64,000 bases of DNA from a candidate division WWE3 bacterium RIFCSPHIGHO2_01_FULL_40_23 (GTDB lineage Bacteria; Patescibacteriota; WWE3; UBA101185; 2-01-FULL-41-18): positions 350,433-414,432 of the forward strand of contig MEUZ01000003.1 in the NCBI GenBank assembly GCA_001772615.1. The letters are read 5' to 3'. The notes under the pieces were generated by a model. The model worked only from the letters and a program-made list of their open reading frames with translations, was not told the DNA's origin and made no database searches. Both the position numbers and the translations under genes were made by a program. This document shows positions 3,879 through 64,000 of this stretch, in pieces (the first letter of the stretch is position 1; each line of letters starts with the position of its first letter).

Positions 3879-5577
3879 TGCTGACAAGGACCAAAGGCTC
3901 TCTTCCCGTCTTTTTATATAAAAACCTTGAAAGGGCTTTTTCAAGGTTTGATCTGAAAAGCCCCTTGTTCCCATAATCTTTTTTATTCTGACTAAACGCA
4001 TTTCTTACAACATTTGAGGCATCACTGATAAGACTTTGGGATTCTTTCACATAAATAAAGCCTCTTGTTAATATATCAACCGCATTTATCTCCTTATCTT
4101 TTTTAACAGTCACTACTGCCGCCATAATCCCATTTGTTGAAAGGACATTTCTGTCTTCAATAACTTTTTCACCCACATCCCCAACAAGTCTCCCGTCAAC
4201 ATATACATTGGATAAACTTAACCTTTCTCCCTTTTTAGAAGTCCCTCCTGAAAGTAAAATAGAATCCCCTTCAAGAAGCTCAAAGATATTTTCCTTTTTT
4301 ACCCCCATATCCGAAATCATATTTGCATAAGCCCTCATATGCCTTACTGTACCTCCTATTGGCATATAATATTTAGGTTTGCATAAAGCGGCCATTAGTT
4401 TAAGATCACCCTTTAAGCCATGTCCTGAAACGTGCAAATTTCCCTGAATTTCAGATTCAATTACAACCGCTCCATTTAAGATTAATCTGTCTATGAGAGT
4501 TTCCACATCATCTCTGACTCCGGGAGGGTTCGGGTCGGCCGAGAAAACAACATAAGCTCCGTCTAAAAGCTCAATATCCTTATGCTCTCCACGTGAAATT
4601 CTGCCAATTGCCGACTCCGGCTGGCCGTAAGCGCCCGCCACAATATACATAAGTTCAGATTGATTAAATCTTCTGCTTTTTTCTTTGGGGATAAAGGTAT
4701 CCTGGGGAAAGTTAAGATACCCAAGTTTTATTGCAACCTCAACAACCTGGTCAATAGCCCGACCGGAAAAAACCACCTTTCTTCCATGCTTTACCGCGCT
4801 TGAAATAGCCTGCTCAAGCCTTGAGACGTTTGAAGAGACTGTAGTCACAAAAAACTGCTTGCCGTGAGCCGCTTCAAGTAAGGAATCAAAGGAGTCTTCT
4901 ATTGTCTTTTCACTTCTTGCATACCCTTCGGTTGTTGCACCCAAACAGTCGGATAAGAGAAGGGTAACCCCGTTTTGACAAAGCCTTGACACTTTTGCTA
5001 CGTCAAAAGGTTTATCCAAGACAGGTGTCCAGTCAAACTTGTAGTCGGCGCAATGAATTACCATTCCCTGCGGGGTATCAATTGAAATACCGCATGAGTC
5101 TGGAACCGAGTGGTTAACCCTGAAATAATCTACTTTAAAAGGACCAACAGCAACCGGACCTCCTTCAGGATCAACCATCCTTAAACTTGTTCCCGAAAGC
5201 ATATCTTTTTCTTTTAACTTTACCTGTATCAAACCCTGAACAAGCCTTGTCGCGAAAACTGGCATTTTAAGGTCTTTTAAAACAAAAGGTATAGCCCCAA
5301 TATGATCGTCATGCCCATGTGTTACAAATAAAGCTTTAACCTTATGGGAATTTTCAAGTAAGTAGGTAATATCAGGAAGAACGACATCAACCCCAAGCAT
5401 TTCAGCATCAGGAAACCCAATCCCGCAGTCAACGATAATTATGTCGTCACCGTATTCATAAACAGTCATGTTTTTGGTGACGCCCGTTGTCCCGCCAAGA
5501 GTTAAAATTTTTAACGGCAGCTTACCCGAGGTGTTTTGTGAAAACTTCTCCCCTTCCTGCAAAAACTTAAATTTCAT
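3865..5577 (-). CDS. rnj: Ribonuclease J (metallo-beta-lactamase / beta-CASP)
   Basis: 570 aa. Contains ILTLGGTTGVTKNMTVYEYGDDIIIVDCG and THGHDDHIGAIPF (the HxHxDH motif); length and domain order match RNase J. Confidence 0.85.
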   Translation of the reverse strand: MKFKFLQEGEKFSQNTSGKLPLKILTLGGTTGVTKNMTVYEYGDDIIIVDCGIGFPDAEMLGVDVVLPDITYLLENSHKVKALFVTHGHDDHIGAIPFVLKDLKMPVFATRLVQGLIQVKLKEKDMLSGTSLRMVDPEGGPVAVGPFKVDYFRVNHSVPDSCGISIDTPQGMVIHCADYKFDWTPVLDKPFDVAKVSRLCQNGVTLLLSDCLGATTEGYARSEKTIEDSFDSLLEAAHGKQFFVTTVSSNVSRLEQAISSAVKHGRKVVFSGRAIDQVVEVAIKLGYLNFPQDTFIPKEKSRRFNQSELMYIVAGAYGQPESAIGRISRGEHKDIELLDGAYVVFSADPNPPGVRDDVETLIDRLILNGAVVIESEIQGNLHVSGHGLKGDLKLMAALCKPKYYMPIGGTVRHMRAYANMISDMGVKKENIFELLEGDSILLSGGTSKKGERLSLSNVYVDGRLVGDVGEKVIEDRNVLSTNGIMAAVVTVKKDKEINAVDILTRGFIYVKESQSLISDASNVVRNAFSQNKKDYGNKGLFRSNLEKALSRFLYKKTGREPLVLVSIIEV

Positions 5578-23975: not shown

Positions 23976-24052
23976 TGTCATTCCGGCGCCTGTCCACCTA
24001 TGGCGGGAAAGCCAGAATCTATTATGAGATCCTGGATCAAGTCCAGGATGAC
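23976..24052. repeat. Palindromic repeat family copy R7
   Basis: tgtcattccggc...gcgggaaagccagaatct...atcctggatcaagtccaggatgaca shares core and ends with the other copies. Confidence 0.6.
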
Positions 24053-24078: not shown

Positions 24079-26004
24079 CTACTCAACAACCTCACCTTCA
24101 ACCGGGCCTTGACTGTCTGAATCAGAAGGCCCTCCTCCCGAACCACTTCCTCCTGATGGACCGGAAGAACCCGGACCTTCGGGACCCGTAGATGTTCCCG
24201 CCCCGGTCTGTCCCTGGCCGTACATGTACTGACCAATCTTTTGAAGGCTCGCAGACAAATCTGAAGTCTTATTTTTAAGCTCCGTTGCGTCAGCCGTTGA
24301 TAAAACATCCCGTATCCCTTTCACCTTATCTTCAATTTCCTTTTTTAAGTCGGCAGGAACTTTGTCTCCTGCATCCCTTAAAGACTTCTCCGCCGTATAG
24401 CAAAGGTTATCAGCCGTATTTCTGGCTTCTGCCAGTTCTTTTCTCTTTCTATCTTCTTCGGCGTGCGCCCCTGCTTCCTTTACCATCCTGTCAACCTCTT
24501 CTTTTGACAAACCCGTCCCTCCCTGTATCGTAATATGCTGTTCCTTATTGGTAGCCTTATCTTTTGCCTTCACGTTTAAAATCCCATTAGCGTCTATATC
24601 AAACGCAACCTCAACCTGCGGAACTCCACGCGGTGCGGGTGGAATCCCGTCAAGAATAAATCTTCCAAGACTTTTATTATCCGAAGCCATCTCTCGCTCT
24701 CCCTGCAAAACATTAACCTCAACCGAAGTCTGATTATCGGCAGCCGTTGAAAACACCTGTGAAGCAGACGTAGGAATGGTTGTGTTTCGCTTTATTAGAG
24801 GCGTCATTACACCTCCGAGTGTCTCAAGCCCAAGAGTCAGAGGCGTAACATCAAGAAGAAGGATATCTTTAACTTCTCCACCTAAAACACCCCCCTGAAT
24901 GGCGGCGCCAACGGCCACAACTTCATCAGGATTAACTCCCATGTGGGGCTCCTTTCCAAAAAAGTTTCTGACCGTCTCAACAACTTTAGGCATTCTTGTC
25001 ATACCCCCGACAAGAACAACTTCATCTATATCCTTAACCGTAACTCCTGCATCAGAAAGTGCACGTTCAATAGGAGAAACGGTTCTTTGAATGAGCCCAT
25101 CCATAAGCTGTTCCAGCTTAGCCCTGGTAAGCTTAACCTGAAGGTGCTTGGGGCCTGAAGAATCGGCAGTAATAAAAGGTATATTAATTTCAGTTTCCAT
25201 TACGGATGAAAGTTCTATTTTTGCCTTCTCCGCCGCATCCTTTAATCTTTGCAATGCCTGCCTGTCTTTTGACAAATCAATTCCATTCTCTTTTTTAAAC
25301 TCGGAGGTTAAAAAGTTAATTAAAACGTTGTCAAAATCATCACCTCCAAGGTGCGTGTCTCCATTGGTCGACTTAACTTCAAAGACCCCGTCTCCTATTT
25401 CAAGAACCGAAACGTCAAAAGTCCCCCCGCCAAGGTCATAAACACATATCCTCTCGTTTTTCTTTTTATCAAGGCCGTAAGCAAGGGATGCGGCCGTCGG
25501 CTCATTAATAATTCTTTTCACATCAAGCCCTGCAATCTGCCCCGCTTCCTTGGTCGCATTTCTTTGAGAGTCGTCAAAATAAGCGGGGACTGTAATAACT
25601 GCTTCAGTTACCACTTGACCAAGAAACGCTTCCGCATCCGCCTTTAATTTAGATAAAATTTTTGCTGAAATTTCTTGAGGAGTATAAATTGTGCCTTCTA
25701 TCTCAACGCAGGCAAGTCCCCCTTTCCCCTCAACAATGTTATACGGAAGCGCTTTAATAAGATTTTGAACTTCGGGGTCTGAAAACCTTCTTCCCATAAG
25801 TCTTTTGATAGAAAAAATAGTGTTTTTTGGATTTACTATCTGCTGTCTTTTAGCGGGCACACCAACCAGATTTTTGGAAGGATCAACAATTGAGGGTGTT
25901 GTATTCATCCCTTCTCTGTTTGGCATAACTTTAGGGGAACCTGCTTCCATAACGGCCATGCATGAATTTGTTGTTCCAAGATCAATTCCTATAATTTTTC
26001 CCAT
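24079..26004 (-). CDS. dnaK: Chaperone DnaK (Hsp70)
   Basis: [18 protein letters not shown], 641 aa, Gly-rich C-terminus. Confidence 0.95.
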
Positions 26005-26078
26005 ATAAAATCCTCCTTTAAGTAAAAGATAACTTCATTATAGAGTTGATATTCATTCTCCCTCTTCAAGAACAAATA

Positions 26079-27259: not shown

Positions 27260-27426
27260 AAGTGTGTATGTTGCACGGCGCTTGAGCAGTAAACCCCCGG
27301 CAAAATAAAATTTAATAAATTAAGTTTTCACTTATCAGTATTATATTTAGAGTGCCAACTTGTCAAGAGCTAAGTTTGAGGATGTTGTTGATTTAAAGCT
27401 TATAGTAAACTATGATTGTTTGTAAC

Positions 27427-28116
27427 ATGAATTTTCACATCATCACGCTCTTTCCTGAAATGTTTGAGGGGGTATTTGAGCGCTCGCTTATAAAAAGAGC
27501 CAGAGAGAAAGGGATCATTAACATAAACCTTATCCAGCTAAGAGATTTTGCTATTGATAGGCATGGGACGGTTGACGACAAACCATACGGCGGCGGTGTT
27601 GGGATGCTCCTTATAGCAAAACCTATTTTTGATGCCGTCAGATCTGTTTATCCAAGTGCCGGTAACCCTTCCGAAAAATCAACAAATAAGAGAGTGATAC
27701 TTCTTTCACCAAGAGGAGAAAAGCTTTCACAGGAAAAGGTTAAAAAGCTTTCAAAGCTTTCAGAAATAATTTTAATTTGCGGAAGGTATGAAGGCGTTGA
27801 TGATAGGGTTCACAGCCTTTGCGATGAAGAGATTTCAATCGGGGACTATGTGCTATCCGGAGGTGAGATACCGGCAATGGTTTTAGTGGACTCTGTATCA
27901 AGACTTATTAAAGGCGTTTTAATAAAAGAGGAAGCTTTAAAAACTGAATCATTTACAAACGGCGTAATTGAATTTCCCCAGTATACAAGGCCAGAAAATT
28001 TTGAGGGTATGAAAGTCCCTGAAATTTTATTATCGGGAGATCATAAAAAAATTGAGGACTGGAAAAAAGAGCAGGCAAGAAAACTTACAAAAGATAAAAG
28101 ACCCGACCTTTTATAG
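27427..28116 (+). CDS. trmD: tRNA (guanine37-N1)-methyltransferase TrmD
   Basis: MNFHIITLFPEMFEG... is the SPOUT TrmD signature. Start taken at the second ATG. Confidence 0.85.
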   Translation: MNFHIITLFPEMFEGVFERSLIKRAREKGIININLIQLRDFAIDRHGTVDDKPYGGGVGMLLIAKPIFDAVRSVYPSAGNPSEKSTNKRVILLSPRGEKLSQEKVKKLSKLSEIILICGRYEGVDDRVHSLCDEEISIGDYVLSGGEIPAMVLVDSVSRLIKGVLIKEEALKTESFTNGVIEFPQYTRPENFEGMKVPEILLSGDHKKIEDWKKEQARKLTKDKRPDLL

Positions 28117-28215
28117 AGATTGCTTCGCTACGCTCGCAATGACTTTGTTAACATTCCCGTCATTGCGAGGACCCGCCTCTCAAGCGAGGCGAGAGGGCGG
28201 GGACGAAGCAATCTA
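28117..28215. repeat. Nested GC-rich palindromic element R1
   Basis: The outer inverted repeat is gattgcttcg...cgaagcaatc. Inner inverted repeats are ctcgcaatgac/gtcattgcgag and ccgcctctc/gagagggcgg. Confidence 0.6.
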
Positions 28216-28280
28216 GCCCATTTATCTGATTTGAAAAAATTTCCTGTTGTTGTAGACTAAAACTCCAAAGGAGACGACCA

Positions 28281-31224: not shown

Positions 31225-31290
31225 GTCATTCCTGCGAAAGCAGGAATCTGGAGATCCCAGGTCATCCGCCAGCTGGCGGACGGGATGACA
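31225..31290. repeat. Palindromic repeat family copy R2
   Basis: gtcattcctgcgaaagcaggaatctggagatcccaggtcatccgccagctggcggacgggatgaca. Confidence 0.65.
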
Positions 31291-31300
31291 TAAAGTCAGT

Positions 31301-33139
31301 TTAAGAAGACAAAACACTTCTAAAAGCTTCTTGCGGGATGTCAACTTTTCCAAATCTCTTTAAACGTTTTTTTCCTTCTTTTTGCTTTTCAAGAAGTTTA
31401 TCCTTTCTTTCCCTATGTCCACCTGACATTTTCTTTAAAACATCCTTTCTTACTGCGGGAATATTTTCCCTTGCAATAATCTTTCCCGAAATTGCCGCCT
31501 GGAGAGATATTTCAAACTGGTGCTTTGGAATTACATTTTTTAACTTTTCCAGAACGCTCCTTCCATACTTTTGCGCGCTCTCCGCGACAACAATTTGAGA
31601 AAGGGGACCAACAATTTCTCCATGAACCAAAATATCAAGCTTTACGGCGTTAACAGGGCGATAATCCAAAAAGTCATAATCAAGACTTCCAAATCCCGAG
31701 GATACTGACTTAAGCTCATCAAAAAAGTTTAATATAAGCTCTGAAAGCGGAAGTTCGTATGCAAGTGTCACCTTTTTTTCAGAGAGGTAATCCATCCTTT
31801 TTAAAACACCTCTATGATTTTCGCAAAGCTCTATAACTCTTCCGAGAAAATCGGTCGGGACAAAAATTGATATTTTAATCCAAGGCTCATAAATTTCCTT
31901 GATCTCCGAAATAGATGGCATTTGAGACGGGGAATCCACTTCAACTTCGGATCCCTCATTAAGTTTGACTTTATATGAAACGTTAGGTATTGAGGAAATA
32001 AGATTTAAATTGTACTCGCGCTCAAGTCTTTCCTGCACTACTTCGGCGTGAAGTAAACCAAGAAAGCCGCATCTGAATCCAAAGCCAAGGGCTGATGAAG
32101 ACTCCGGCTCAAAAGAAAGGGAAGAATCTGACAGGCTTAATTTCAAAAGAGCTTCCCGCAGTGCCGGGAATTTATCATTTTCTGTAGGGTAGAGTGATAG
32201 AAATACAAAAGGCTTTACTTCCTTGTAACCCGGTAGGGCTTCTGAAGTAGTTTCGGTTTTGAGGGGAATGTCCCTGTCTAAAACTACAGTATCTCCAACC
32301 CTCACCTTTTTTATTTCCTTTAAACCTGTTGCAATATACCCAACTTCGCCTGCAGAAAGAATTGAAGCCTTTTTCCTTTGCGGAGAGAAAAATCCAATCT
32401 CTTCAGGAAAAGAGCCAACTCCCGTCGCAAGAAATCTAATTTTCTCTTTCTTTAAAGTATCCTCTTGTGAGATCTTCCCATCAACCACTCTCACTAGTGC
32501 AACAACCCCGAGGTATTCATCAAAAAAGGAATCAAAGATCAAAGCCCTGAATGGACCGTCCTCCTTTCCTGAAGGCGGTGGAACTCTTTTAATTATCTCC
32601 CTTAAAAGATTTTCCGTATTCTGCCCGGTTTTTGCGGAGACAAAAACAATATCTTCTTTTTTAAAACCTAAAGTTGAAACTAAATCTTTCGCAACTTTTT
32701 CAGGCTCGGATGAAGGAAGGTCAATTTTATTTACAACCGGAATTATCGTTAAACCTGCTTCCATTGCCTTATAAACATTTGACAAGGTTTGGGCTTCTAT
32801 ACCCTGCGTTGCGTCCACAACCAAGACCGTGCCTTCGCACGCGGCAAGTGACCTTGAAACTTCATATGAGAAGTCAACGTGCCCCGGTGTGTCAATAAGG
32901 TTAAGTTCGTAGGTCTCCGACTTTTCGGGGGTGTAAAACATCCTAACGGCCTTCAACTTTATTGTGATGCCCTTCTCCCTCTCAAGGTCCATGCTGTCAA
33001 GAGTCTGCTCACGCATCTCCCTTTTATCTAAAGTTTTAGTAATCTCAAGAAAGCGGTCCGCCAAAGTTGACTTCCCATGGTCAATATGGGCAATAATGCA
33101 AAAATTCCTTATATTCTTTGGAGAAATACCTTCCCGCAT
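31301..33139 (-). CDS. lepA: Elongation factor 4 (LepA)
   Basis: NIRNFCIIAHIDHGKSTLADRFL. Start placed at MREGISPKNIRNF. The ORF track extends further 5'. Confidence 0.9.
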   Translation of the reverse strand: MREGISPKNIRNFCIIAHIDHGKSTLADRFLEITKTLDKREMREQTLDSMDLEREKGITIKLKAVRMFYTPEKSETYELNLIDTPGHVDFSYEVSRSLAACEGTVLVVDATQGIEAQTLSNVYKAMEAGLTIIPVVNKIDLPSSEPEKVAKDLVSTLGFKKEDIVFVSAKTGQNTENLLREIIKRVPPPSGKEDGPFRALIFDSFFDEYLGVVALVRVVDGKISQEDTLKKEKIRFLATGVGSFPEEIGFFSPQRKKASILSAGEVGYIATGLKEIKKVRVGDTVVLDRDIPLKTETTSEALPGYKEVKPFVFLSLYPTENDKFPALREALLKLSLSDSSLSFEPESSSALGFGFRCGFLGLLHAEVVQERLEREYNLNLISSIPNVSYKVKLNEGSEVEVDSPSQMPSISEIKEIYEPWIKISIFVPTDFLGRVIELCENHRGVLKRMDYLSEKKVTLAYELPLSELILNFFDELKSVSSGFGSLDYDFLDYRPVNAVKLDILVHGEIVGPLSQIVVAESAQKYGRSVLEKLKNVIPKHQFEISLQAAISGKIIARENIPAVRKDVLKKMSGGHRERKDKLLEKQKEGKKRLKRFGKVDIPQEAFRSVLSS

Positions 33140-33197
33140 GGGGAGAATTGTAGCATATAAAAATCCCCGTCTAGTTGAACCTAAGACGGGGAACAAA

Positions 33198-33539
33198 CTA
33201 CTTCTTTCTGAAGGGAAACGCAAACCTTAACGGGAGGAAAAAATGAATTCCCGCAAGAGTCATAACCACGGCATTGGCGACCGAAAGCGTGAAGCCGGGT
33301 TTATACTCAACATAATTAAGCGTAAAAGTCGGAAGGATTGCCCCCCAAAGAAAAATCTTGGAGATAAACCTTGCCGCTTTTCCGCTATTCTGACTGGCCC
33401 AGATCCCAATCGCTCCTAAAACATAAGCTATGGGGCGATAGTCTGAAAATGACCTGGCTACGAGCACCCCAGCAAAAAACATCAGAACTCCAAGTAGAAC
33501 AGGACCTAAAAGGTCCCTGTCAAATGAGGTCCTCTTCAT
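33198..33539 (-). CDS. Small membrane protein, hypothetical
   Basis: 113 aa, about 3 TM helices, slightly higher GC. Confidence 0.4.
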   Translation of the reverse strand: MKRTSFDRDLLGPVLLGVLMFFAGVLVARSFSDYRPIAYVLGAIGIWASQNSGKAARFISKIFLWGAILPTFTLNYVEYKPGFTLSVANAVVMTLAGIHFFLPLRFAFPFRKK

Positions 33540-43358: not shown

Positions 43359-44462
43359 TCAAGACTTGACAACTTCGCTAACCATTTCAACAAGCCTGTT
43401 GGAGTAGCCCCATTCGTTGTCATACCAAGCAACAACTTTAAGAAGATCCCCGTCAATAACTTTAGTTAAAGACAAATCAACAATTGCCGAATATGGTGAG
43501 CCTATAACATCCGATGACACAAACGGCTCATAAGTTGCATCAATTACGTTTTTATACAGGGGATTTTTCTTAGCTTCCAAAAACGCTTCATTTACTTCCT
43601 CAACCGTCACTTCCCTTTTAACAAGCATTGTGAAATCCGATAAAGAACCGGTCATGACGGGAGCCCTAACTGAAAGCCCGTCAAACAAACCTTTCAGCTC
43701 CGGAATAACTTCAGTAGTAGAAACCGCGGCACCGGTTGTTGTTGGAACCAGATTAAATCCCGCTGCTCTTGCTCTTCTTAAATCATGGTGTAGAGGGGGC
43801 GGAGGCCCGTCCACAATCATCTGCTCTGCGGTAATAGCGTGAATTGTAGTCATGGAAGCTTTTAAAATCCCAAACTTTGAGTGAATTATTCCCGCAACCG
43901 GTGAAATGCAGTTTGTGGTGCAGGAAGCGTTTGATACAACTTCCTCGCCCAGGTATTTGTCAGAATTTACTCCAAGAAGATAAGTCTGAACTGAACCGCC
44001 CTTGGCGGGAGCCGAGATTATAACCTTTTTAGCACCGGCCTTAACATGTACCGCGGCATCATTATTGTTTGTATATCTTCCGGTGCACTCAAGCACAACA
44101 TCAATACTTAAATTTTTCCATGGAAGAAGCGCGGGATCCTTCTGCGATAAAACCAGAGTTTTTTTACCGTTAACTAAAAGGTGCGCCTCACCTCCTGAAG
44201 CAGCCTCAAAATGCTTTTTCTCGGGAGTGTTTCCTTCAACGTGGAATGTACTTCCTCCCTCTTCAACTTTCACTTCTTTATCATAAATGCCATAAACCGT
44301 GTCATATTTTAAAAGATGAGCTAAAACTTTGGCATCTGTAAGATCATTAACCGCTACAATTTCTATATCGGGTTTATCAAAGGCAATTTTAAAGGCGGCC
44401 CGGCCGATTCTGCCAAAGCCGTTAATAGCTACTCTTATGGGCATAGGTATTTTTCCCATCAT
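43359..44462 (-). CDS. gap: Glyceraldehyde-3-phosphate dehydrogenase
   Basis: VAINGFGRIGR and the catalytic SCTTNC. The start may be the internal MPIRVAING (44444). Confidence 0.9.
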   Translation of the reverse strand: MMGKIPMPIRVAINGFGRIGRAAFKIAFDKPDIEIVAVNDLTDAKVLAHLLKYDTVYGIYDKEVKVEEGGSTFHVEGNTPEKKHFEAASGGEAHLLVNGKKTLVLSQKDPALLPWKNLSIDVVLECTGRYTNNNDAAVHVKAGAKKVIISAPAKGGSVQTYLLGVNSDKYLGEEVVSNASCTTNCISPVAGIIHSKFGILKASMTTIHAITAEQMIVDGPPPPLHHDLRRARAAGFNLVPTTTGAAVSTTEVIPELKGLFDGLSVRAPVMTGSLSDFTMLVKREVTVEEVNEAFLEAKKNPLYKNVIDATYEPFVSSDVIGSPYSAIVDLSLTKVIDGDLLKVVAWYDNEWGYSNRLVEMVSEVVKS

Positions 44463-44475
44463 CCAGGACCCAGCA

Positions 44476-44590
44476 TGTCATTCTGGCGAAAGCCAGAATC
44501 TAAAATGGTCATCGCGAGTCCACCAGCCGGCGGACGTGGCGATCTCTAGAGATTGCTATTCGAACTTCGTTCGAACGCTCGCAAAGACAA
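44476..44590. repeat. Palindromic repeat family copy R3 (compound)
   Basis: tgtcattctggcgaaagccagaatct...gattgctattcgaacttcgttcgaacgctcgcaaag. The second half resembles R1. Confidence 0.6.
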
Positions 44591-44629: not shown

Positions 44630-44899
44630 CTATTTGGCAAGAACTGAATCCAGCCAGTTTTTAAACATATCTCTTGTCATCGCGCCAATCTTTCTGTCAA
44701 TCTCCTTCTCGTCTTTAAGAATTACATAAGTCGGGATACTCATAACACCGTACTTTCCAGCCGCTTCCCCATTTGTATCAACGTCAATTTTACTAAACTT
44801 GATTTTACCCGCGTAAAGCTTTTCCGCTTCTTCAATTATCGGCTTCATTGCATGACACGGCCCGCACCAATCTGCAAAAAAATCAATAAATTCAAACAT
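44630..44899 (-). CDS. trxA: Thioredoxin (short, 89 aa)
   Basis: The WCGPC active site, with a strong AGGAGG RBS upstream. Confidence 0.8.
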   Translation of the reverse strand: MFEFIDFFADWCGPCHAMKPIIEEAEKLYAGKIKFSKIDVDTNGEAAGKYGVMSIPTYVILKDEKEIDRKIGAMTRDMFKNWLDSVLAK

Positions 44900-44941
44900 A
44901 TTTTATTCCTCCTAGGTGTGTATGATAACATACAATTTACC

Positions 44942-45946
44942 ATGCATAACAGTTTTAAAATCCCGGCTTTGTTAACTGTGCTTGCCGCTATCATATTTTC
45001 CGTCCTTGCCACCTTTAAAATTTACAGAGAAGGGAAACTCCCAAACATACTTGCCAAAGCTTCAAAGGAAGAATCGGTACTCGCTAACACAAAGACAAAT
45101 AGTGACCTGTACAGAAAAACTTTAAGAAAATTTTACGTTTTGGATAAGGACCTTAAATTTAACGAACCGACCGAATCGGCTTACCCGATAGAAATAAAGG
45201 CCAACAATGCTCTTGTCCTTGATCTTTCAGAAGGAGAGATCCTTTTTGAAAAAGATCTGAAAGAAAGGGTTCCTATAGCTTCCCTGGTTAAAATAATGAC
45301 TACCATTATTGCCCTTGAGCACAAAGACACTGAAGATGAAATGACCGTAAGCGAAAAAGCCGGTTTGACAGGAGAAAACTCAATGGAGATCACCGCCGGT
45401 GAAACCTACACTTTAAGGGAGCTCCTTTACGGGTTAATCTTGCATTCAGGAAATGACGCGGCCGTAGCAATTGCAGAAAACACAGCCGAAAGTGAAGAAA
45501 ACTTTGTTGAATGGATGAACATTAAGGCGGGAGAGCTTGGGCTTTCAGATACAAAATTTTATGATGCAAGCGGTTTAAATGATAATAGCTACAGCACCGC
45601 GTATGATCTAGCCAAACTTACAAGATACGCAATGAAAAACCCCGACTTTAAAGAGGTAGTTAAAACTCTTGAATATGAAATCCTGCCGACTGAAAAACAC
45701 AAATATATTTACCTTTACAACCAGACAAACCTGTTAAGATCGTACCCGGGTGTTGAAGGTGTTAAAACCGGCTTTACCGAAGAGGCGGGGCTTTGCCTTG
45801 TGACATATGTAAAGTATGGGGATAAAGAGCTTATAGGAGTGGTTCTTGGAAGCTCCGACAGAAAATACGACATGGTTTTAATGCTTGACTACGCCTTTGA
45901 GAAGCTTGGGATTAAGGCAGACCACCCGCTTATTACGGTTCAATAG
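44942..45946 (+). CDS. D-alanyl-D-alanine carboxypeptidase (serine-type, PBP5-like)
   Basis: The SxxK motif (ASLVKIM), SGN (HSGNDAA), KTG (KTGFT), and an N-terminal TM anchor. Confidence 0.75.
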   Translation: MHNSFKIPALLTVLAAIIFSVLATFKIYREGKLPNILAKASKEESVLANTKTNSDLYRKTLRKFYVLDKDLKFNEPTESAYPIEIKANNALVLDLSEGEILFEKDLKERVPIASLVKIMTTIIALEHKDTEDEMTVSEKAGLTGENSMEITAGETYTLRELLYGLILHSGNDAAVAIAENTAESEENFVEWMNIKAGELGLSDTKFYDASGLNDNSYSTAYDLAKLTRYAMKNPDFKEVVKTLEYEILPTEKHKYIYLYNQTNLLRSYPGVEGVKTGFTEEAGLCLVTYVKYGDKELIGVVLGSSDRKYDMVLMLDYAFEKLGIKADHPLITVQ

Positions 45947-49270: not shown

Positions 49271-50035
49271 ATGAAAGCAAAGAAAGAACTGGGGCAAAAT
49301 TTTTTAATTGACGAGCACATTGTAAACATTCTGATCCAGGAAGGAGAGGTAAATAACACAGATAAAGTTCTTGATATCGGATCCGGAAAAGGGTTTGTAA
49401 CCAAGGCTCTTTCTGAAAAAGCCGGGAATGTGCTGGGTGTTGAACTGGATAAAGATTTAATCCCTGTACTTACTTCAAACTTATCACAGTTTAAAAATGT
49501 TGAGATTGAAAACGGCGATATTCTGACTTTTTTAGAGGATAAATCTAATCACAAAAGGTTCAACAAGATAGTTTCTTCCATCCCATTTCAGATAACCTCT
49601 CCCCTTTTGCACAAAATCATAAATATCAGAAGCACAATAGATATTTGCGTCCTACTCATTCAAAAAGAGGTTGCCGAAAGGGTAACTGCAAAACCGCCAA
49701 AAGCAAATTACTTATCCATATTTCTTCAGACCTTTTTTAAGGTGGAGCTAATCACTGTTGTTAGTAAAGAATCATTTTATCCAAAATCTGAAGTTGACGG
49801 CGCAATTATAAAACTCACACCGCTAAAAAAATCTCTTGTAAAAGACGACGTCAAATATTCAAAATTCCTCCACCACGGGTTCACACAGCAAAGAAAGATG
49901 CTATATAAAAGGTTTAAAAAGGAAGTTTTAGAGAAGGCTGGTATAGATACAACAAGGAGAGCCGAAACTTTAAGCGTTGAAGAGTGGGTAAAGATATTCA
50001 AGAATTCATCCCTGATCTGGCCCATGTCATCCTGA
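49271..50035 (+). CDS. rsmA: 16S rRNA (adenine1518/1519-N6)-dimethyltransferase RsmA/KsgA
   Basis: KELGQNFLIDEHIV...LDIGSGKGFVT. Confidence 0.85.
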   Translation: MKAKKELGQNFLIDEHIVNILIQEGEVNNTDKVLDIGSGKGFVTKALSEKAGNVLGVELDKDLIPVLTSNLSQFKNVEIENGDILTFLEDKSNHKRFNKIVSSIPFQITSPLLHKIINIRSTIDICVLLIQKEVAERVTAKPPKANYLSIFLQTFFKVELITVVSKESFYPKSEVDGAIIKLTPLKKSLVKDDVKYSKFLHHGFTQQRKMLYKRFKKEVLEKAGIDTTRRAETLSVEEWVKIFKNSSLIWPMSS

Positions 50036-50039
50036 ATTT

Positions 50040-50085
50040 AATTCAGGATCTACAGTGAGATACCTGCTTTCGCAGGAATGGCAGA
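50040..50085. repeat. Palindromic repeat family copy R4 (reverse orientation)
   Basis: cctgctttcgcaggaatggcag is the reverse complement of the cattcctgcgaaagcagg core. Confidence 0.6.
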
Positions 50086-51255: not shown

Positions 51256-52953
51256 GTGAAGGTAAGAATTCCAAAATTCATAGCTATATCCACAATCTTT
51301 CTGTTTCTGTCTACAAGCCTCGCTCACGCCTCGGGAGAAATCATTAAAAAATTTAACTCCGAAGTATCAATATATAAAAATGGTGTCGTAAATGTTAGAG
51401 AAACCATAGTTTATGATTTCTCCACCCTGCAAAGACACGGGATATTTAGAGACATTCCATACACTCTAAAAAATTCGGAAGGCAAAGAATTTGAAATGCC
51501 CATAACTGTTCTTTCAGTCAAAAACGAATACGGACAGGACTATAAATACACACAGTCCAGAACAGGCGGAAACGTCTCGTTAAAAATCGGAGATCCCAAT
51601 AAAACAATCACCGGTGCTCACACCTACGTTATTACTTACGAGGTAGAAGGGACCTTGGAGGAGTTTTCGGACCATGACGAGCTCTACTGGAACGTAACAG
51701 GGAATGAGTGGAAAGTCCCTATAGAAACTTCTTCCGTCAGGCTGTTGTTTCCATCCGACGTGCCCGTCTCAAATCTGAAAATCGCTTGTTTTACAGGGCC
51801 CTTTGGATCTAAAGAAGTAAACTGCTCTCAAGTTTACGACCTTCTGCCAAGCCTTTTTGTAACAACCACAAAATATCTTAATCCAAACGAAGGCTTTACG
51901 ATCGTTGCGGGCTTTGACAAAGGTTACATAACCGTAATACCTAAAAAAGAAGTAAGCAAACTCCCGGAATATTTAGTTCTTGCAGGACTGTTCATCTGGT
52001 ATTTCCTTCTTCCCTTATCGGTTATTCTCATGTATCTAAAATACGGGAGAGACCCAAAAATAAATACCGCAATACCGGCATTGTTTGAGCCGCCTCTTGA
52101 TGGCAAAAGAAGACTAACACCAGCCGAGTCGGGAACTATTGTGGACGAATCTGCGGACGACAAAGACATTACCGCAACAATCGTGGACCTTGCAATAAGA
52201 GGTTACCTGAAAATAACGGAAAAGGATCAGAAGTCTCTTGGAGGATTGCTCTCCTCAAAAGATTACATCCTTACCAGAGAGGAAACGTATAAAAACAAAG
52301 AAGGAGAAGTAAAACTGGAAAAACATGAGGAAGCCTTAATTAATTCTTTGTTCAAGGACGGGGATGAGGTATCAACAGCGGATCTTTTAGACTCATTCAG
52401 TAAAGATGCTCAAAATATTAAAGATAATTTATATAAAAACGCTATCTCAAACGGATTTTTTCCGCATAATCCTAAAACAGTAAGAGACATCTGGCTTATT
52501 GTCGGATTTTTGTCTTTATTTACAATTAACGTTCCTCTTGGAGTTGTATGCATTGTATTTTCAAGGGTCATGCCAAGAAAGACTCTTAAAGGAGCTAAAA
52601 GCAAAGTTGATATTTTAGGCCTTAAGAGGTTTGTTTCTTCCCAGGAAAGACAGCTTAAGTTTCAAGAGGAGAACTGGTATTTATTTGAAAAGCTTCTCCC
52701 TTATGCTATAGCCTTGGGTGTGGCAGATGTATGGGCAAAAAGGTTTGAAAAACTTGGGGAAATACCTCAAAGAACCTGGTATACAGGAAACTCAAGTTTT
52801 AATTCATATACTTTCGCTAATTCGTTAGGCTCTCTTGGAACTTCTGTAGCGAGAGCGGCCACACCGACAAGCTCTTCTTCAGGTTTCTCAAGCGGATTTT
52901 CTGGAGGATCTTCCGGCGGTGGAGGCGGAGGCGGTGGCGGTGGGTCATGGTAA
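51256..52953 (+). CDS. DUF2207-like membrane protein with a Gly-rich C-terminal tail
   Basis: A signal peptide, an N-terminal beta-rich domain (DELYWNVTGNEW), internal TM helices, and a C-terminal SSGFSSGFSGGSSGGGGGGGGGGSW. Confidence 0.55.
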   Translation: MKVRIPKFIAISTIFLFLSTSLAHASGEIIKKFNSEVSIYKNGVVNVRETIVYDFSTLQRHGIFRDIPYTLKNSEGKEFEMPITVLSVKNEYGQDYKYTQSRTGGNVSLKIGDPNKTITGAHTYVITYEVEGTLEEFSDHDELYWNVTGNEWKVPIETSSVRLLFPSDVPVSNLKIACFTGPFGSKEVNCSQVYDLLPSLFVTTTKYLNPNEGFTIVAGFDKGYITVIPKKEVSKLPEYLVLAGLFIWYFLLPLSVILMYLKYGRDPKINTAIPALFEPPLDGKRRLTPAESGTIVDESADDKDITATIVDLAIRGYLKITEKDQKSLGGLLSSKDYILTREETYKNKEGEVKLEKHEEALINSLFKDGDEVSTADLLDSFSKDAQNIKDNLYKNAISNGFFPHNPKTVRDIWLIVGFLSLFTINVPLGVVCIVFSRVMPRKTLKGAKSKVDILGLKRFVSSQERQLKFQEENWYLFEKLLPYAIALGVADVWAKRFEKLGEIPQRTWYTGNSSFNSYTFANSLGSLGTSVARAATPTSSSSGFSSGFSGGSSGGGGGGGGGGSW

Positions 52954-52982: not shown

Positions 52983-53102
52983 TGTCATCCTGAACTGACT
53001 TTATGTCATGCCGGACCTGATCCGGCATCTATAATCCTAGATTCCCGCTTTCGCGGGAATGACACTTGATTCGTGTTGGAGCTTAGACCCTGCTTTCGCA
53101 GG
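52983..53102. repeat. Palindromic repeat family copy R5 (compound, TIR-bounded)
   Basis: tgtcatcc...catgccggacctgatccggcat...ctagattcccgctttcgcgggaatgaca, then cctgctttcgcagg. Confidence 0.65.
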
Positions 53103-62571: not shown

Positions 62572-64000
62572 CTACGGAGTCCCTTTTTTATACACATTCA
62601 AAATCTTCACACCATCAGCCCAAACAGAATGTACCTCCTCAAAACTCTCGGGAACTACTACTTCACCCCTAAAATTAGTCACATAATAATCCGGCTCTTT
62701 GGTTTTCTGGCTTACATCAAGCCTTTTTCTGTCCGGCTCCGGAAGGATCAGGGTGTTATTTTTCCCCGGGTAATTCGCCACTTTAACTTTTATCTTATCC
62801 CTGTCATCGGTTCTCACTATATATTCAAGACCCTTTCTGTAGGAAAGCCCCCAATAATCAAGATCAAACCTTTGCCCGATTGTGCTTTTTTCACCCGCAA
62901 AAACATTAAAGTACATATTCTCAAAAGGGTGATTTCTGTACATAAAACCTAAAGCTAAAAGCGCGTTAACCAACACCGCAAGAATAAGAGCTCGTTTTAA
63001 GAAAAAGCCAGAAGCATTAACCGCGAAAGTCAGAATATACACAAAAGCCGGGTATATAAAAAAGAGCTGGCGCCATTCATCATATAAAACAGACTTTAAA
63101 AGTATTACTGAAAGAAGAGGAACAAAAAACCAAAGCAAGATAAGCATGTCTTCTTTTCTTAAAGAACTTCGTTTATAGACAAAATAAAAAAGCCCTAGAC
63201 AGAAAACAAAAATATAAGCTGGTGGGATGGTAACAAGCATCCATCCGGGAGCATAATAAAAAGGCAAATTTACGCTTTCTATCTTCTTTCCGTAAAAAAG
63301 CATTTCAGTTGGCTGCGGGTAATATTTAAAAGCTTTAATAAAGTTTCCGACAGGGTTTTCCCAAAGAGTGGGCCAGAATAAAACGGTAAAAATAGCTGTA
63401 ACCAAGACATAGACAACCAACGGTTTTAATTCCTGCTTTAGCAAGGATAAACTTAAGCCTGAATCTATAATTGTCATCCCGGGCTTGACCCGGGATCTAG
63501 ATTCCCGCTTTCGCAGGAATGACAGTGTATACGGTAATAAAACCCCGCTTGAGATAAAGAGGGCAACAAAAAAGGGGATTAAAACGCCAAGAATCCTTGT
63601 GTCAATTAAAACAGCAGAAGTAAAAGCCAGAATAAACGCGCTAAAGTAACTTCTCTTATCCAAAAACTGTAGTACAAAATAAACGTTTATTATAAAAAAC
63701 GACAAAAAAACCATATCTTTTGAGTTATAAAAAGAGTGGGCAAAAAGCCTTGGAGTTAAAACCAAAACCGCGCTTCCAAGAAGTGAAAGCCACGTGCCAA
63801 ACCTTTTTCTTAATAACAAAAAGAAGAACAAAACACCGGCATATTGCGTCATAAAAGTTAGAAAGTGCCTTGAAAAATAAATTTCCCGTGAGTCGCTTAA
63901 ATTAAATATTTTTTGAGCACCTACCAGAAAAACTTCAAAAACGGGGCCGTAAAATTTATCTATTTTATCAAGAGGTTTCTTGTCTCTTAGAAAAACATGA
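62572..64000 (-). CDS. GT-C fold (PMT/ArnT-like) membrane glycosyltransferase, 5'-partial; contains an in-frame repeat insertion
   Basis: The reading frame is open through 64000 upstream of the listed Met. It is multi-TM. An 18-aa insert LSFLRKRESRSRVKPGMT is encoded by repeat R6. Confidence 0.6.
   Translation of the reverse strand, partial: HVFLRDKKPLDKIDKFYGPVFEVFLVGAQKIFNLSDSREIYFSRHFLTFMTQYAGVLFFFLLLRKRFGTWLSLLGSAVLVLTPRLFAHSFYNSKDMVFLSFFIINVYFVLQFLDKRSYFSAFILAFTSAVLIDTRILGVLIPFFVALFISSGVLLPYTLSFLRKRESRSRVKPGMTIIDSGLSLSLLKQELKPLVVYVLVTAIFTVLFWPTLWENPVGNFIKAFKYYPQPTEMLFYGKKIESVNLPFYYAPGWMLVTIPPAYIFVFCLGLFYFVYKRSSLRKEDMLILLWFFVPLLSVILLKSVLYDEWRQLFFIYPAFVYILTFAVNASGFFLKRALILAVLVNALLALGFMYRNHPFENMYFNVFAGEKSTIGQRFDLDYWGLSYRKGLEYIVRTDDRDKIKVKVANYPGKNNTLILPEPDRKRLDVSQKTKEPDYYVTNFRGEVVVPESFEEVHSVWADGVKILNVYKKGTP
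63472..63525. repeat. Palindromic repeat family copy R6, 54 nt, inserted in-frame in a CDS
   Basis: tgtcatcccgggcttgacccgggatctagattcccgctttcgcaggaatgacag; near-identical to the right half of R5. Confidence 0.7.

What the first reader, a model, noticed from the sequence alone, without database searches (positions are those of the whole stretch)
63472..63525. Repeat element inserted in-frame inside the GT-C glycosyltransferase gene
The 54-nt element is exactly 18 codons. The glycosyltransferase ORF (62572 to beyond 64000, minus strand) reads straight through it, encoding LSFLRKRESRSRVKPGMT between hydrophobic segments. A homologous repeat elsewhere encodes IPAFAGMT in a spurious ORF. In-frame tolerated insertion of a palindromic element into a protein, as seen with rickettsial RPEs, is unusual and suggests recent mobility.
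Basis: seen in the sequence. Interest (0 to 1): 0.6.

Follow-up and report, generated by a model that had tools for sequence, protein, structure and literature searches.

The report
Known hairpin repeat inside glycosyltransferase gene
A 53-base pair of hairpin repeats, of a type already known from Neisseria and Rickettsia, sits in frame inside a membrane glycosyltransferase gene of a candidate-phylum (WWE3) bacterium and adds 18 amino acids to a flexible loop; this is a real but already described kind of event.

Summary
Window 63472-63524 is a 53-nt element, TGTCAT...ATGACA, made of two hairpins. The minus-strand GT-C/PMT_2 glycosyltransferase gene reads through it as LSFLRKRESRSRVKPGMT. Six other loci in the window carry related hairpins, all intergenic. 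None of 119 homologues has the segment. It lies in a length-variable loop between two transmembrane helices that AlphaFold models with low confidence. Six contigs from six samples carry the identical 53-mer, which excludes a chimera.

The element is not new. It is a dimer of CGTC/TGTC-tagged REPs (Di Nocera 2013), which are the same as Neisseria dRS3/NTS, the Ssn-related motifs (Chenal 2025) and Rickettsia RPE-6. That 2013 paper lists in-frame Rickettsia insertions encoding the same peptides (SFPRKRES, SFLRKQES, DSRFRGND). The RPE analogy is therefore homology, not just resemblance.

Both hairpin sequences occur exactly in many contigs: the 22-mer in genomes of many phyla, the 25-mer in contigs of 28-71% GC. 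Some of these copies lie next to Ssn-type GIY-YIG genes. I found five more in-frame cases: Mfd, YchF, RsmF, a DNA methylase and another GT-C.

"Recent mobility" is not shown, and no ssn gene lies in the 74 kb examined. What is new is the host phylum (CPR) and the host gene.

The parts
63472..63524 (.). 53-nt dimer of two tagged REP hairpins, with the TGTC tags outward ('HH' dimer in Di Nocera's terms). The two tails overlap in the palindrome CTAG. It lies inside the coding sequence.
   Evidence: Sequence. Fold. Boundaries set by comparison with the other copies. The 53-mer is identical in 6 contigs.
63472..63500 (+). Hairpin 1: TGTCAT-CCCGGG-CTTGA-CCCGGG-ATCTAG. It has an 8-bp stem (counting the A-T pairs) and a 5-nt loop, and it matches the published SRM search pattern exactly.
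   Evidence: SRM regular-expression match. The exact 25-mer occurs in more than 120 metagenome contigs of 28-71% GC. It lies next to Ssn homologues in L147, L182, L192 and L206.
63497..63524 (-). Hairpin 2, read on the mRNA strand: TGTCATTCCTGCGAAAGCGGGAATCTAG. It has an 8-bp stem with one G.T pair and a GAAA loop. It is the CGTC-1 / dRS3 / NTS type and differs from the NTS consensus CGTCATTCCCGCGMAVGCGGGAATCYRG at 2 positions.
   Evidence: NTS consensus from PMC11893778. The related 22-mer pattern TTCCYGCTTTCGCRGGAATGAC, which this copy's own sequence fits, occurs in more than 120 stretches of genomes from many phyla.
62572..64000 (-). GT-C (PMT_2, ArnT-like) glycosyltransferase gene. The C-terminal 475 of 522 codons are in the window, and the stop codon is at 62572-62574. 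The insert is residues 206-223 of the full protein P0001.
   Evidence: Pfam PF13231, 27.1 bits against a cutoff of 26.1. P0001 is 100% identical, from candidate division WWE3. AlphaFold pLDDT 86.9. Foldseek hits to ALG12, STT3 and ArnT.
53005..53063 (.). Intergenic sister copy. It is a tag-outward dimer (GTCATGCCGGACCTGATCCGGCATC ... GATTCCCGCTTTCGCGGGAATGAC) lying 52 nt after ORF 51256..52953. Its right unit fits dRS3 and the SRM pattern exactly and reads IPAFAGMT in one frame.
50026..50082 (.). Intergenic sister copy. It is a tag-outward dimer between two convergent ORFs, and it supplies the TGA stop codon (50033-50035) of ORF 49271..50035.
31225..31289 (.). Intergenic sister copy. It is a tag-outward dimer (GTCATTCCTGCGAAAGCAGGAATC ... 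GGGATGAC) lying 12 nt from the 3' end of ORF 31301..33223 (minus strand).
23977..24052 (.). Intergenic sister copy. It is a tag-outward dimer with a degenerate left unit and an intact right unit (GTCATCCTGGACTTGATCCAGGATC on the minus strand). It lies 27 nt from the 3' end of ORF 24079..26034 (minus strand).
44477..44549 (+). Intergenic sister locus with two tagged hairpins in the same orientation: GTCATTCTGGCGAAAGCCAGAATCTA, then GTCATCGCGAGTCCACC...GGCGATCTCTAG.

Best explanation
Window 63472-63524 is a non-coding selfish repeat that ended up inside a gene and was tolerated.

What it is. It is a dimer of two short CGTC/TGTC-tagged palindromic REPs. This superfamily has also been described as Neisseria dRS3/NTS, as 'Ssn-related motifs' (SRM), and as Rickettsia RPE-6 and RPE-4. 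Each unit is [C/T]GTC, then AT, a 6-bp GC-rich stem, a 4-5 nt loop, the return stem, AT, and a C-plus-short tail. The two units face each other with the tags outward and share CTAG.

Where it sits. The gene encodes a GT-C (PMT_2/ArnT-like) glycosyltransferase of a WWE3 (candidate phyla radiation) bacterium and overlaps a GT2 gene directly upstream. The dimer lies in the loop between transmembrane helices 6 and 7, which by helix counting and charge is cytoplasmic (inferred).

Why it was tolerated (inferred):
- The net length change keeps the reading frame.
- The frame in use is one of only two of the six frames without a stop codon.
- The encoded peptide is hydrophilic and strongly basic (6 K/R, 1 E), which suits a cytoplasmic loop.
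- This loop already varies in length across the family, and AlphaFold models it as poorly ordered.

Shown here: the family identity, the in-frame reading, absence from homologues, the loop location, and assembly support.

Inferred: that the protein still works, and that such repeats are spread as single-stranded DNA hairpins by a small GIY-YIG Ssn-type nuclease acting in trans. The repeat-Ssn association is published, and I reproduced it here in other contigs. Transposition by Ssn has never been demonstrated. No ssn gene was found in the 74 kb of this genome that I could read.
For: Family identity:
- Hairpin 1 matches the SRM pattern. Hairpin 2 is 2 mismatches from the NTS consensus.
- Stem and loop sizes, TGTC tags and the HH-dimer form fit the description of CGTC REPs.
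- The encoded peptide matches those listed for intragenic R. conorii CGTC-1 (RPE-6) copies.

Dispersed family in this genome:
- Six other loci in the window, mostly within 60 nt of gene 3' ends. One supplies a stop codon.

Lineage-specific insert:
- Absent from 29 aligned homologues.
- The SKD-to-WPxLW spacing is 92 residues in 53 of 113 homologues and 116 here.

Real and intact gene:
- All 42 invariant alignment columns are kept.
- AlphaFold pLDDT is 86.9 and pTM 0.88, with the insert region at 53-65.
- GT-C fold hits.
- A GT2 gene directly upstream overlaps it by 10 nt.

Not an artefact:
- 15 contigs carry the protein. Six from six samples, with more than one contig-naming style, have the identical 53-mer and flanks.
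- A population variant with one substitution elsewhere in the protein keeps the insert.

Frames: only 2 of 6 are open.

Charge pattern: the putative cytoplasmic loops are net positive.

Recurrence: in-frame copies occur in a DNA methylase and another PMT_2 gene, and in Mfd, YchF and RsmF.

Ssn link: GIY-YIG Ssn homologues lie within 120 nt of the exact hairpin-1 25-mer in four metagenome contigs, and next to a hairpin-2 match in L076.
Against: - No empty site or close orthologue exists. The nearest homologue is 48% identical and not syntenic. So the insertion event, its exact length and its age are inferred, not observed.
- No target-site duplication or conserved target is visible at the seven loci.
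- No ssn gene is present in the window or in the 10 kb beyond it. The rest of the genome could not be searched.
- Function of the modified enzyme is untested.
- The cytoplasmic placement of the loop rests on helix counting, the positive-inside rule and recalled ArnT topology, not on a measurement.
- Hairpin 2 fails the strict SRM pattern by one base (the C-to-T change that also turns Pro into Leu).
Confidence: 0.85

Rival explanations
1. The gene is a dead or dying pseudogene. The repeat insertion inactivated the transferase, and the open frame is simply not yet broken.
For: Function is untested. The Pfam score is only just above threshold. CGTC REP insertions hit unrelated genes with no sign of functional constraint.
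Against: The 522-codon ORF is intact. All 42 family-invariant residues are retained. The fold is predicted with confidence outside the loop. The gene overlaps a GT2 partner gene upstream. The sequence is identical or nearly so in 15 contigs. The insert lies in the one loop that varies in length across the family.
Confidence: 0.08
2. The in-gene copy is kept because it does something. It could act as an Ssn cleavage or recombination site that modulates exchange of a surface-glycan gene, as proposed for NTS near Neisseria surface genes. Or it could act as an mRNA structure that affects stability or translation of the operon.
For: Both hairpins are nearly perfect. NTS repeats cluster near membrane-protein genes in Neisseria, and Ssn limits transformation there. 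Another PMT_2 GT-C gene, in a Terriglobia genome, also carries an in-frame copy.
Against: In-frame copies occur in unrelated housekeeping genes: Mfd, YchF, RsmF and a DNA methylase. That pattern fits neutral tolerance better. No ssn gene was found nearby. There is no comparative evidence that the hairpin has been conserved over time at this site.
Confidence: 0.07
3. The stretch is an assembly or binning artefact: a chimeric join through a repeat shared by two different loci.
For: Short repeats can cause mis-joins in metagenome assemblies. The genome is a metagenome-assembled genome.
Against: The repeat is only 53 nt, shorter than a read. Both halves of the protein align to one family across the junction and fold as one domain. 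Six contigs from six samples, with more than one contig-naming style, carry the identical 53-mer and flanks.
Confidence: 0.01

Closest known systems
CGTC-tagged REPs, families CGTC-1 and CGTC-2 (Di Nocera, De Gregorio & Rocco 2013, BMC Genomics 14:522, PMC3733652)
   Same: The tag is CGTC, often TGTC. Stems are 8 bp and begin with A-T pairs. Loops are 4 or 5 nt, followed by a 3-nt tail. Most copies form dimers with tags outward. Most lie just downstream of ORFs, and some provide stop codons. Intragenic in-frame copies and dimers are reported, encoding the same peptides.
   Different: The 2013 survey found them in Proteobacteria, Chlorobi, Bacteroidetes, Spirochaetes and Thermotogae, not in candidate phyla radiation bacteria or DPANN archaea. 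Here the dimer has no spacer, its tails overlap, and it pairs two different unit types. The tail is CTA rather than the consensus CCA. My family assignment uses stem and loop length only, because I could not see their consensus figure.
Rickettsia palindromic elements RPE-6 and RPE-4 (Ogata et al. 2000, 2002)
   Same: Di Nocera et al. equate R. conorii CGTC-1 with RPE-6. They are inserted in frame in functional genes, often in membrane proteins, and encode SFPRKRES, SFLRKQES, VIPAKAGI or DSRFRGND.
   Different: The host is a free-living groundwater CPR bacterium, not an intracellular alphaproteobacterium. The classic RPE-1 elements are about 150 bp and unrelated in size.
Neisseria dRS3 / NTS and Ssn-related motifs with SsnA GIY-YIG ssDNA nucleases (Chenal et al. 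2025, Nat Commun 16:2388, PMC11893778)
   Same: Hairpin 2 is the NTS with 2 mismatches. The intergenic copy at 53041-53060 fits ATTCCC-N8-GGGAAT exactly. Hairpin 1 fits the SRM pattern. The critical C after the palindrome and the GTC before it are present. The exact hairpins lie next to Ssn homologues in other contigs.
   Different: No ssn gene was seen in the 74 kb examined. No role in transformation is known here. In Neisseria only about 2% of copies are inside genes.
REPINs mobilised by RAYT transposases (GTAG REPs)
   Same: Both are inverted doublets of short hairpins that form the repeated unit. Both are non-autonomous, mostly extragenic, and thought to move as single-stranded DNA.
   Different: The tag is CGTC/TGTC, not GTAG. 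CGTC REPs were reported to lack an associated tyrosine transposase.

Membership tests
CGTC-tagged REP (Di Nocera 2013) | Unpaired CGTC tag (TGTC or CCTC allowed) at one end of the stem-loop | tested here: met
   Both units start with TGTC (63472-63475 on the plus strand; 63524-63521 on the minus strand). The allowed variants are quoted.
CGTC-tagged REP (Di Nocera 2013) | Stem of 8-9 bp beginning with complementary A-T pairs, loop of 4-5 nt, short 3-nt tail | tested here: met
   Hairpin 1 is ATCCCGGG/CTTGA/CCCGGGAT plus CTA. Hairpin 2 is ATTCCTGC/GAAA/GCGGGAAT plus CTA, with one G.T pair. The tail is CTA against the consensus CCA.
CGTC-tagged REP (Di Nocera 2013) | Multi-copy and dispersed, mostly as dimers with tags outward, close to the 3' ends of ORFs | tested here: met
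   There are seven loci in 64 kb. Five are tag-outward dimers. The hairpin count is 11 against 1.08 in shuffles.
Ssn-related motif / NTS (Chenal 2025) | Match to HGTCWYN(0-2)YYVSBRHN(0-5)WNVSBRGN(0-2)RNCYNB, or to the NTS consensus with at most 1 mismatch | tested here: inconclusive
   Hairpin 1 matches the SRM pattern. Hairpin 2 misses it by one base and has 2 mismatches to the NTS consensus. The intergenic copy at 53037-53064 matches.
Ssn-related motif / NTS (Chenal 2025) | An Ssn (GIY-YIG, cd10448) gene in the same genome, typically flanked by the motif | not tested
   tblastn with Ssn homologues found nothing in the window or the adjacent 10 kb. In other contigs the exact hairpins do flank Ssn homologues. 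Ssn-like proteins exist in CPR, for example Wildermuthbacteria.
Ssn-related motif / NTS (Chenal 2025) | Bound and cut by the cognate Ssn as single-stranded DNA only | not testable with these tools
   This needs a biochemical assay.
Rickettsia RPE-6 (= R. conorii CGTC-1) | Same repeat unit, inserted in frame in ORFs, encoding the conserved peptide | tested here: met
   The encoded SFLRKRES compares with the listed SFPRKRES (RC0382) and SFLRKQES...DSRFRGND (RC0249, RC0378). The equivalence of CGTC-1 and RPE-6 is taken from the paper, not re-derived from Rickettsia DNA.
MITE (miniature inverted-repeat transposable element) | 15-30 bp terminal inverted repeats, target-site duplication, and derivation from an insertion sequence | tested here: not met
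   The termini are only the 6-nt TGTCAT/ATGACA. No duplication appears at any of the seven loci. MITE features are quoted.
GT-C glycosyltransferase (host gene) | PMT_2/ArnT-type multi-pass fold with a conserved acidic motif in the first external loop | tested here: met
   PF13231 hit. Foldseek hits to ALG12, STT3, ALG9 and ArnT. W33-D34-E35 are invariant in the alignment.

The most novel reading that the evidence does not exclude
CGTC/SRM hairpin dimers may be currently mobile far outside the Proteobacteria, including in CPR bacteria and DPANN archaea. They may move between phyla together with Ssn nucleases. That would explain why identical 22-25-nt hairpins occur in genomes of many phyla and in metagenome contigs of 28% to 71% GC. 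They would then act as a general, prokaryote-wide source of short in-frame peptide insertions, which is the Rickettsia RPE phenomenon generalised. Membrane-protein loops and repair or translation factors would be the recurrent survivors.
Probability: 0.3. Interest if true: 0.55.

Novelty: new member of a known kind. Interest (0 to 1): 0.28.

Why it matters
On its own this is one more tolerated in-frame insertion of a repeat type that has been described for over a decade.

Its modest value has three parts:
- It extends CGTC/SRM repeats, and their in-frame insertion, to a candidate phyla radiation genome. Through the related loci it also extends them to a DPANN archaeal genome.
- It links three literatures that use different names for one repeat: RPE-6, dRS3/NTS/SRM and CGTC REPs.
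- It shows that annotators should expect peptides such as SFPRKRES, VIPAKAGI, DSRFRGND and IPAFAGMT both in spurious ORFs and as genuine loop insertions.

The wide sharing of exact hairpin sequences across very different genomes deserves a proper survey.

Tried and rejected
- Rfam at gathering thresholds: no hit anywhere in the window.
- Literature search for the encoded peptides: nothing. The search on the DNA words is what led to the Ssn paper.
- Variant without the insert in the 90%-identity protein cluster: all three members carry it.
- Synteny check to confirm the closest homologue P0002 as an orthologue: its contig is not syntenic, and the second PMT_2 gene on that contig is unrelated.
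- Test of whether the two other homologues with long loops at the same place (P0014, P0110) also carry a REP: their DNA shows no clean tagged hairpin. Recurrent insertion at this exact loop is therefore not supported.
- GIY-YIG search in the window by motif pattern and tblastn: none.
- Long ORFs spanning repeats in high-GC loci (L026, L037, L083, L095, L108, L119): judged by eye to be spurious from their low-complexity Arg/Ala/Gly-rich translations, and not Pfam-tested. In L053 the repeat lies upstream of the real start codon. L022, L231 and L183 had no Pfam support.
- MITE and GTAG-REP/RAYT classifications: rejected on tag, terminal repeats and lack of a duplication.
- Chimera: rejected.
Full report
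OBSERVATION. Window 63472-63525 reads ATTGTCATCCCGGGCTTGACCCGGGATCTAGATTCCCGCTTTCGCAGGAATGACAGTG in its context. The minus-strand frame that stops at 62572-62574 stays open to the window edge. It translates this stretch as LSFLRKRESRSRVKPGMT, between the hydrophobic runs ...FFVALFISSGVLLPYT and ...LKPLVVYVLVTAIFTVLFW. On the mRNA strand the segment folds into two adjacent hairpins closed by GUCAU/AUGAC. The energy is -32.5 kcal/mol against -21.4 +/- 2.9 for shuffles, and none of 200 shuffles folds as well. The 24-mer of the second hairpin recurs at 31225, 50059 and 53040, giving 4 matches against 0 expected.

BOUNDARIES AND ANATOMY. Every copy is bounded by (T/C)GTCAT...ATGAC(A). It consists of two units. 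Unit 1 on the plus strand is TGTCAT-CCCGGG-CTTGA-CCCGGG-ATCTAG (63472-63500). Unit 2 on the minus strand is TGTCAT-TCCTGC-GAAA-GCGGGA-ATCTAG (63524-63497). The units face each other with the GTC tags outward and share the palindrome CTAG. Only two of the six frames of the 53-mer lack a stop codon. These are VIPGLTRDLDSRFRRND and the one in use, SFLRKRESRSRVKPGMT.

THE FAMILY IN THIS GENOME. A structural scan (G[TC]CAT, stem of at least 6 bp, loop of 3-6 nt, ATC) finds 11 hairpins in the window, against 1.08 +/- 1.0 (maximum 4) in 100 dinucleotide-preserving shuffles. They group into loci at 23977-24052, 31225-31289, 44477-44549, 50026-50082, 53005-53063 and 63472-63524. A related, longer-stemmed pair lies at 28122-28216. 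All except the glycosyltransferase copy are intergenic, and most lie within 60 nt of a gene's 3' end. The dimer at 50026 supplies the TGA stop codon (50033-50035) of ORF 49271..50035. Rfam finds nothing in the window.

THE HOST GENE. The translated ORF hits Pfam PMT_2. It is 100% identical to P0001, a 522-aa protein of candidate division WWE3 bacterium RIFCSPHIGHO2_01_FULL_40_23. A GT2 glycosyltransferase gene lies directly upstream and overlaps it by 10 nt. An AlphaFold model built on 30 homologues has pLDDT 86.9 and pTM 0.88. Its best structural matches are the GT-C enzymes ALG12, STT3, ALG9 and ArnT. P0001 retains all 42 invariant columns of the alignment, including W33-D34-E35.

IS THE SEGMENT AN INSERT? 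Residues 206-223 of P0001 face gaps in all 29 aligned homologues. Across 113 homologues the distance from the SKD motif to the WPxLW motif is 92 residues in 53 cases and 81-98 in nearly all. P0001 has 116. No homologue carries an RKRES or AGMT peptide there. Two homologues also have long loops at this place (P0014 and P0110), but their DNA shows no tagged hairpin. The loop is simply a length-variable spot. In the model the insert extends helix 182-214 and then becomes coil, with pLDDT 65, 59 and 53 in the three ten-residue blocks that cover it. The next helix starts at residue 231. I counted helices from a cytoplasmic N-terminus with the WDE loop outside, as in ArnT (from my own knowledge of that structure). 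On that count this is the cytoplasmic loop after the sixth helix. The other putative cytoplasmic loops are net positive, and the insert adds 6 K/R and 1 E. The nearest homologue is only 48% identical and not syntenic. No empty site can therefore be shown, and the age of the insertion cannot be estimated.

NOT AN ARTEFACT. The protein is encoded on 15 contigs. Six of them, from six samples, with more than one contig-naming style, carry the identical 53-mer and flanks. A population variant with one substitution elsewhere keeps the insert.

WHAT THE REPEAT IS. A full-text search for the DNA words led to Chenal et al. 2025. That paper defines the Neisseria Transformation Sequence (NTS), CGTCATTCCCGCGMAVGCGGGAATCYRG, which contains dRS3 (ATTCCC-N8-GGGAAT). 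It also defines a degenerate 'Ssn-related motif' (SRM) found in many bacteria, often flanking genes for small GIY-YIG single-strand-specific nucleases. Unit 2 differs from the NTS consensus at two positions. Unit 1 and the intergenic copy at 53037-53064 match the SRM pattern.

An earlier paper, Di Nocera et al. 2013, had already classified these as CGTC-tagged REPs. Its description covers:
- a CGTC tag, often TGTC;
- 8-9 bp stems that start with A-T pairs;
- 4-5 nt loops and a 3-nt tail;
- dimers mostly with the tags outward;
- locations close to ORF 3' ends;
- intragenic copies.

That paper equates CGTC-1 with Neisseria dRS3 and with R. conorii RPE-6, and CGTC-4 with RPE-4. Its supplementary table of intragenic copies lists SFPRKRES (RC0382), SFLRKQES...DSRFRGND dimers (RC0249, RC0378), VIPAKAGI and CHSRESGNP in R. 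conorii proteins, many of them membrane proteins. The peptide in this glycosyltransferase is the same one.

DISTRIBUTION AND ASSOCIATION, RE-TESTED HERE. The pattern TTCCYGCTTTCGCRGGAATGAC for unit 2 occurs exactly in more than 120 stretches of species-representative genomes. These include Alpha-, Beta- and Gammaproteobacteria, Dehalococcoidia, Bacteroidota, Omnitrophota, several CPR lineages, a Tisiphia (Rickettsiaceae) endosymbiont and a Nanoarchaeota genome. The 25-mer of unit 1 occurs exactly in more than 120 metagenome contigs with 28-71% GC, usually as the left arm of a tag-outward dimer. Contigs L193 and L212 pair it with the same unit 2, separated by spacers of about 20-30 nt. Ssn-type GIY-YIG ORFs lie within 120 nt of that 25-mer in L147, L182, L192 and L206, and within 1 kb in L185. 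One lies next to a unit-2 match in L076, and another is present in L078. The Ssn family is very large and includes a CPR (Wildermuthbacteria) member. No Ssn homologue is present in the window or in the 10 kb beyond it. The rest of this genome was out of reach.

OTHER IN-FRAME COPIES. I examined the 146 unit-2 matches and the 130 unit-1 matches in the fetched loci. I looked for long ORFs reading through the repeat, then checked the low-GC candidates with Pfam. Five are convincing:
- An N6_N4 DNA methylase in the Nanoarchaeota genome. The Pfam domain match runs across a dimer inserted just before the DIILDFFLGSGTT motif that aligns to solved DNA methyltransferases (L057).
- Another PMT_2 GT-C gene, in a Terriglobia genome (L059).
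- Mfd/TRCF (L212), YchF (L217) and RsmF (L223).

That is about 2% of the sampled copies, the same order as the 2% reported for N. meningitidis. The high-GC candidates looked like spurious ORFs from their Arg/Ala/Gly-rich translations and were not Pfam-tested.

MECHANISM. The most likely account is neutral tolerance of a selfish repeat. Insertions that break a gene are lost from the population. This one survives because it keeps the frame, uses a stop-free frame, and encodes a basic, flexible peptide in a loop that tolerates length changes. The identity, position and integrity parts of this account are shown. Continued enzyme function is inferred. The spread of such hairpins by an Ssn nuclease acting on single-stranded DNA is a hypothesis, raised in the 2025 paper from the repeat-gene-repeat architecture, and it is not demonstrated anywhere. 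Alternatives are a pseudogene, a selected role as a cleavage, recombination or RNA element, and a chimera. These are weighed under the rival explanations. The chimera is excluded, and the other two are unlikely but not excluded.

VERDICT. This is a known class of repeat and a known class of event, and what is new is the host phylum and the host gene. Interest is low to moderate.

Noticed in passing
window 50026-50082: This tag-outward REP dimer lies between two convergent ORFs. It overlaps the end of ORF 49271..50035 and supplies that ORF's TGA stop codon (50033-50035), so the last codons of that gene come from the repeat.
   Followed up: partly
window 28122-28216: This is a different CGTC-tagged pair, with tags inward and much longer stems (GTCATTGCGAG... 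/ ...GCAATC type). It lies 4 nt after ORF 27409..28116. It appears to be a second repeat family in the same genome.
   Followed up: no
window 44477-44549: Two tagged hairpins lie in the same orientation (head-to-tail), an arrangement the 2013 survey calls negligible. They lie in the gap between ORFs 43359..44477 (minus) and 44648..45946 (plus).
   Followed up: no
L057 1500-1600 (Nanoarchaeota MAG, contig JAHIPG010000372.1): A canonical Neisseria-type NTS (GTCATTCCCGCGCAGGCGGGAATCCAG), plus a second unit, is inserted in frame in an N6_N4 DNA methylase just before the DIILDFFLGSGTT motif. The contig is archaeal-labelled and has 37% GC.
   Followed up: partly
L212 about 3850-3950; L217 about 3650-3700; L223 about 1690-1720: In-frame REP units or dimers occur inside Mfd/TRCF, YchF GTPase and RsmF methyltransferase genes in unrelated metagenome contigs. 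This echoes the published bias toward repair and housekeeping genes.
   Followed up: partly
loci L007-L126 and L127-L246: Exactly identical 22-25-nt hairpin sequences are shared widely. The 22-mer occurs in genomes of many phyla, and the 25-mer in metagenome contigs of 28% to 71% GC. This is hard to explain without either strong constraint from a recognising protein or frequent horizontal transfer.
   Followed up: partly
window 63501-63507, within hairpin 2: One base departs from the canonical stem: ATTCCTGC on the mRNA strand instead of ATTCCCGC. This change weakens the stem to a G.T pair and also changes the usual Pro of SFPRKRES to Leu (SFLRKRES). The same Leu appears in some R. conorii copies (SFLRKQES).
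   Followed up: no
L247 1153-2721: The contig that carries the closest homologue (P0002) holds a second 522-aa PMT_2 gene. It is unrelated in sequence to P0001 (25% identity over 211 residues), so these small genomes can carry several GT-C paralogues.
   Followed up: yes
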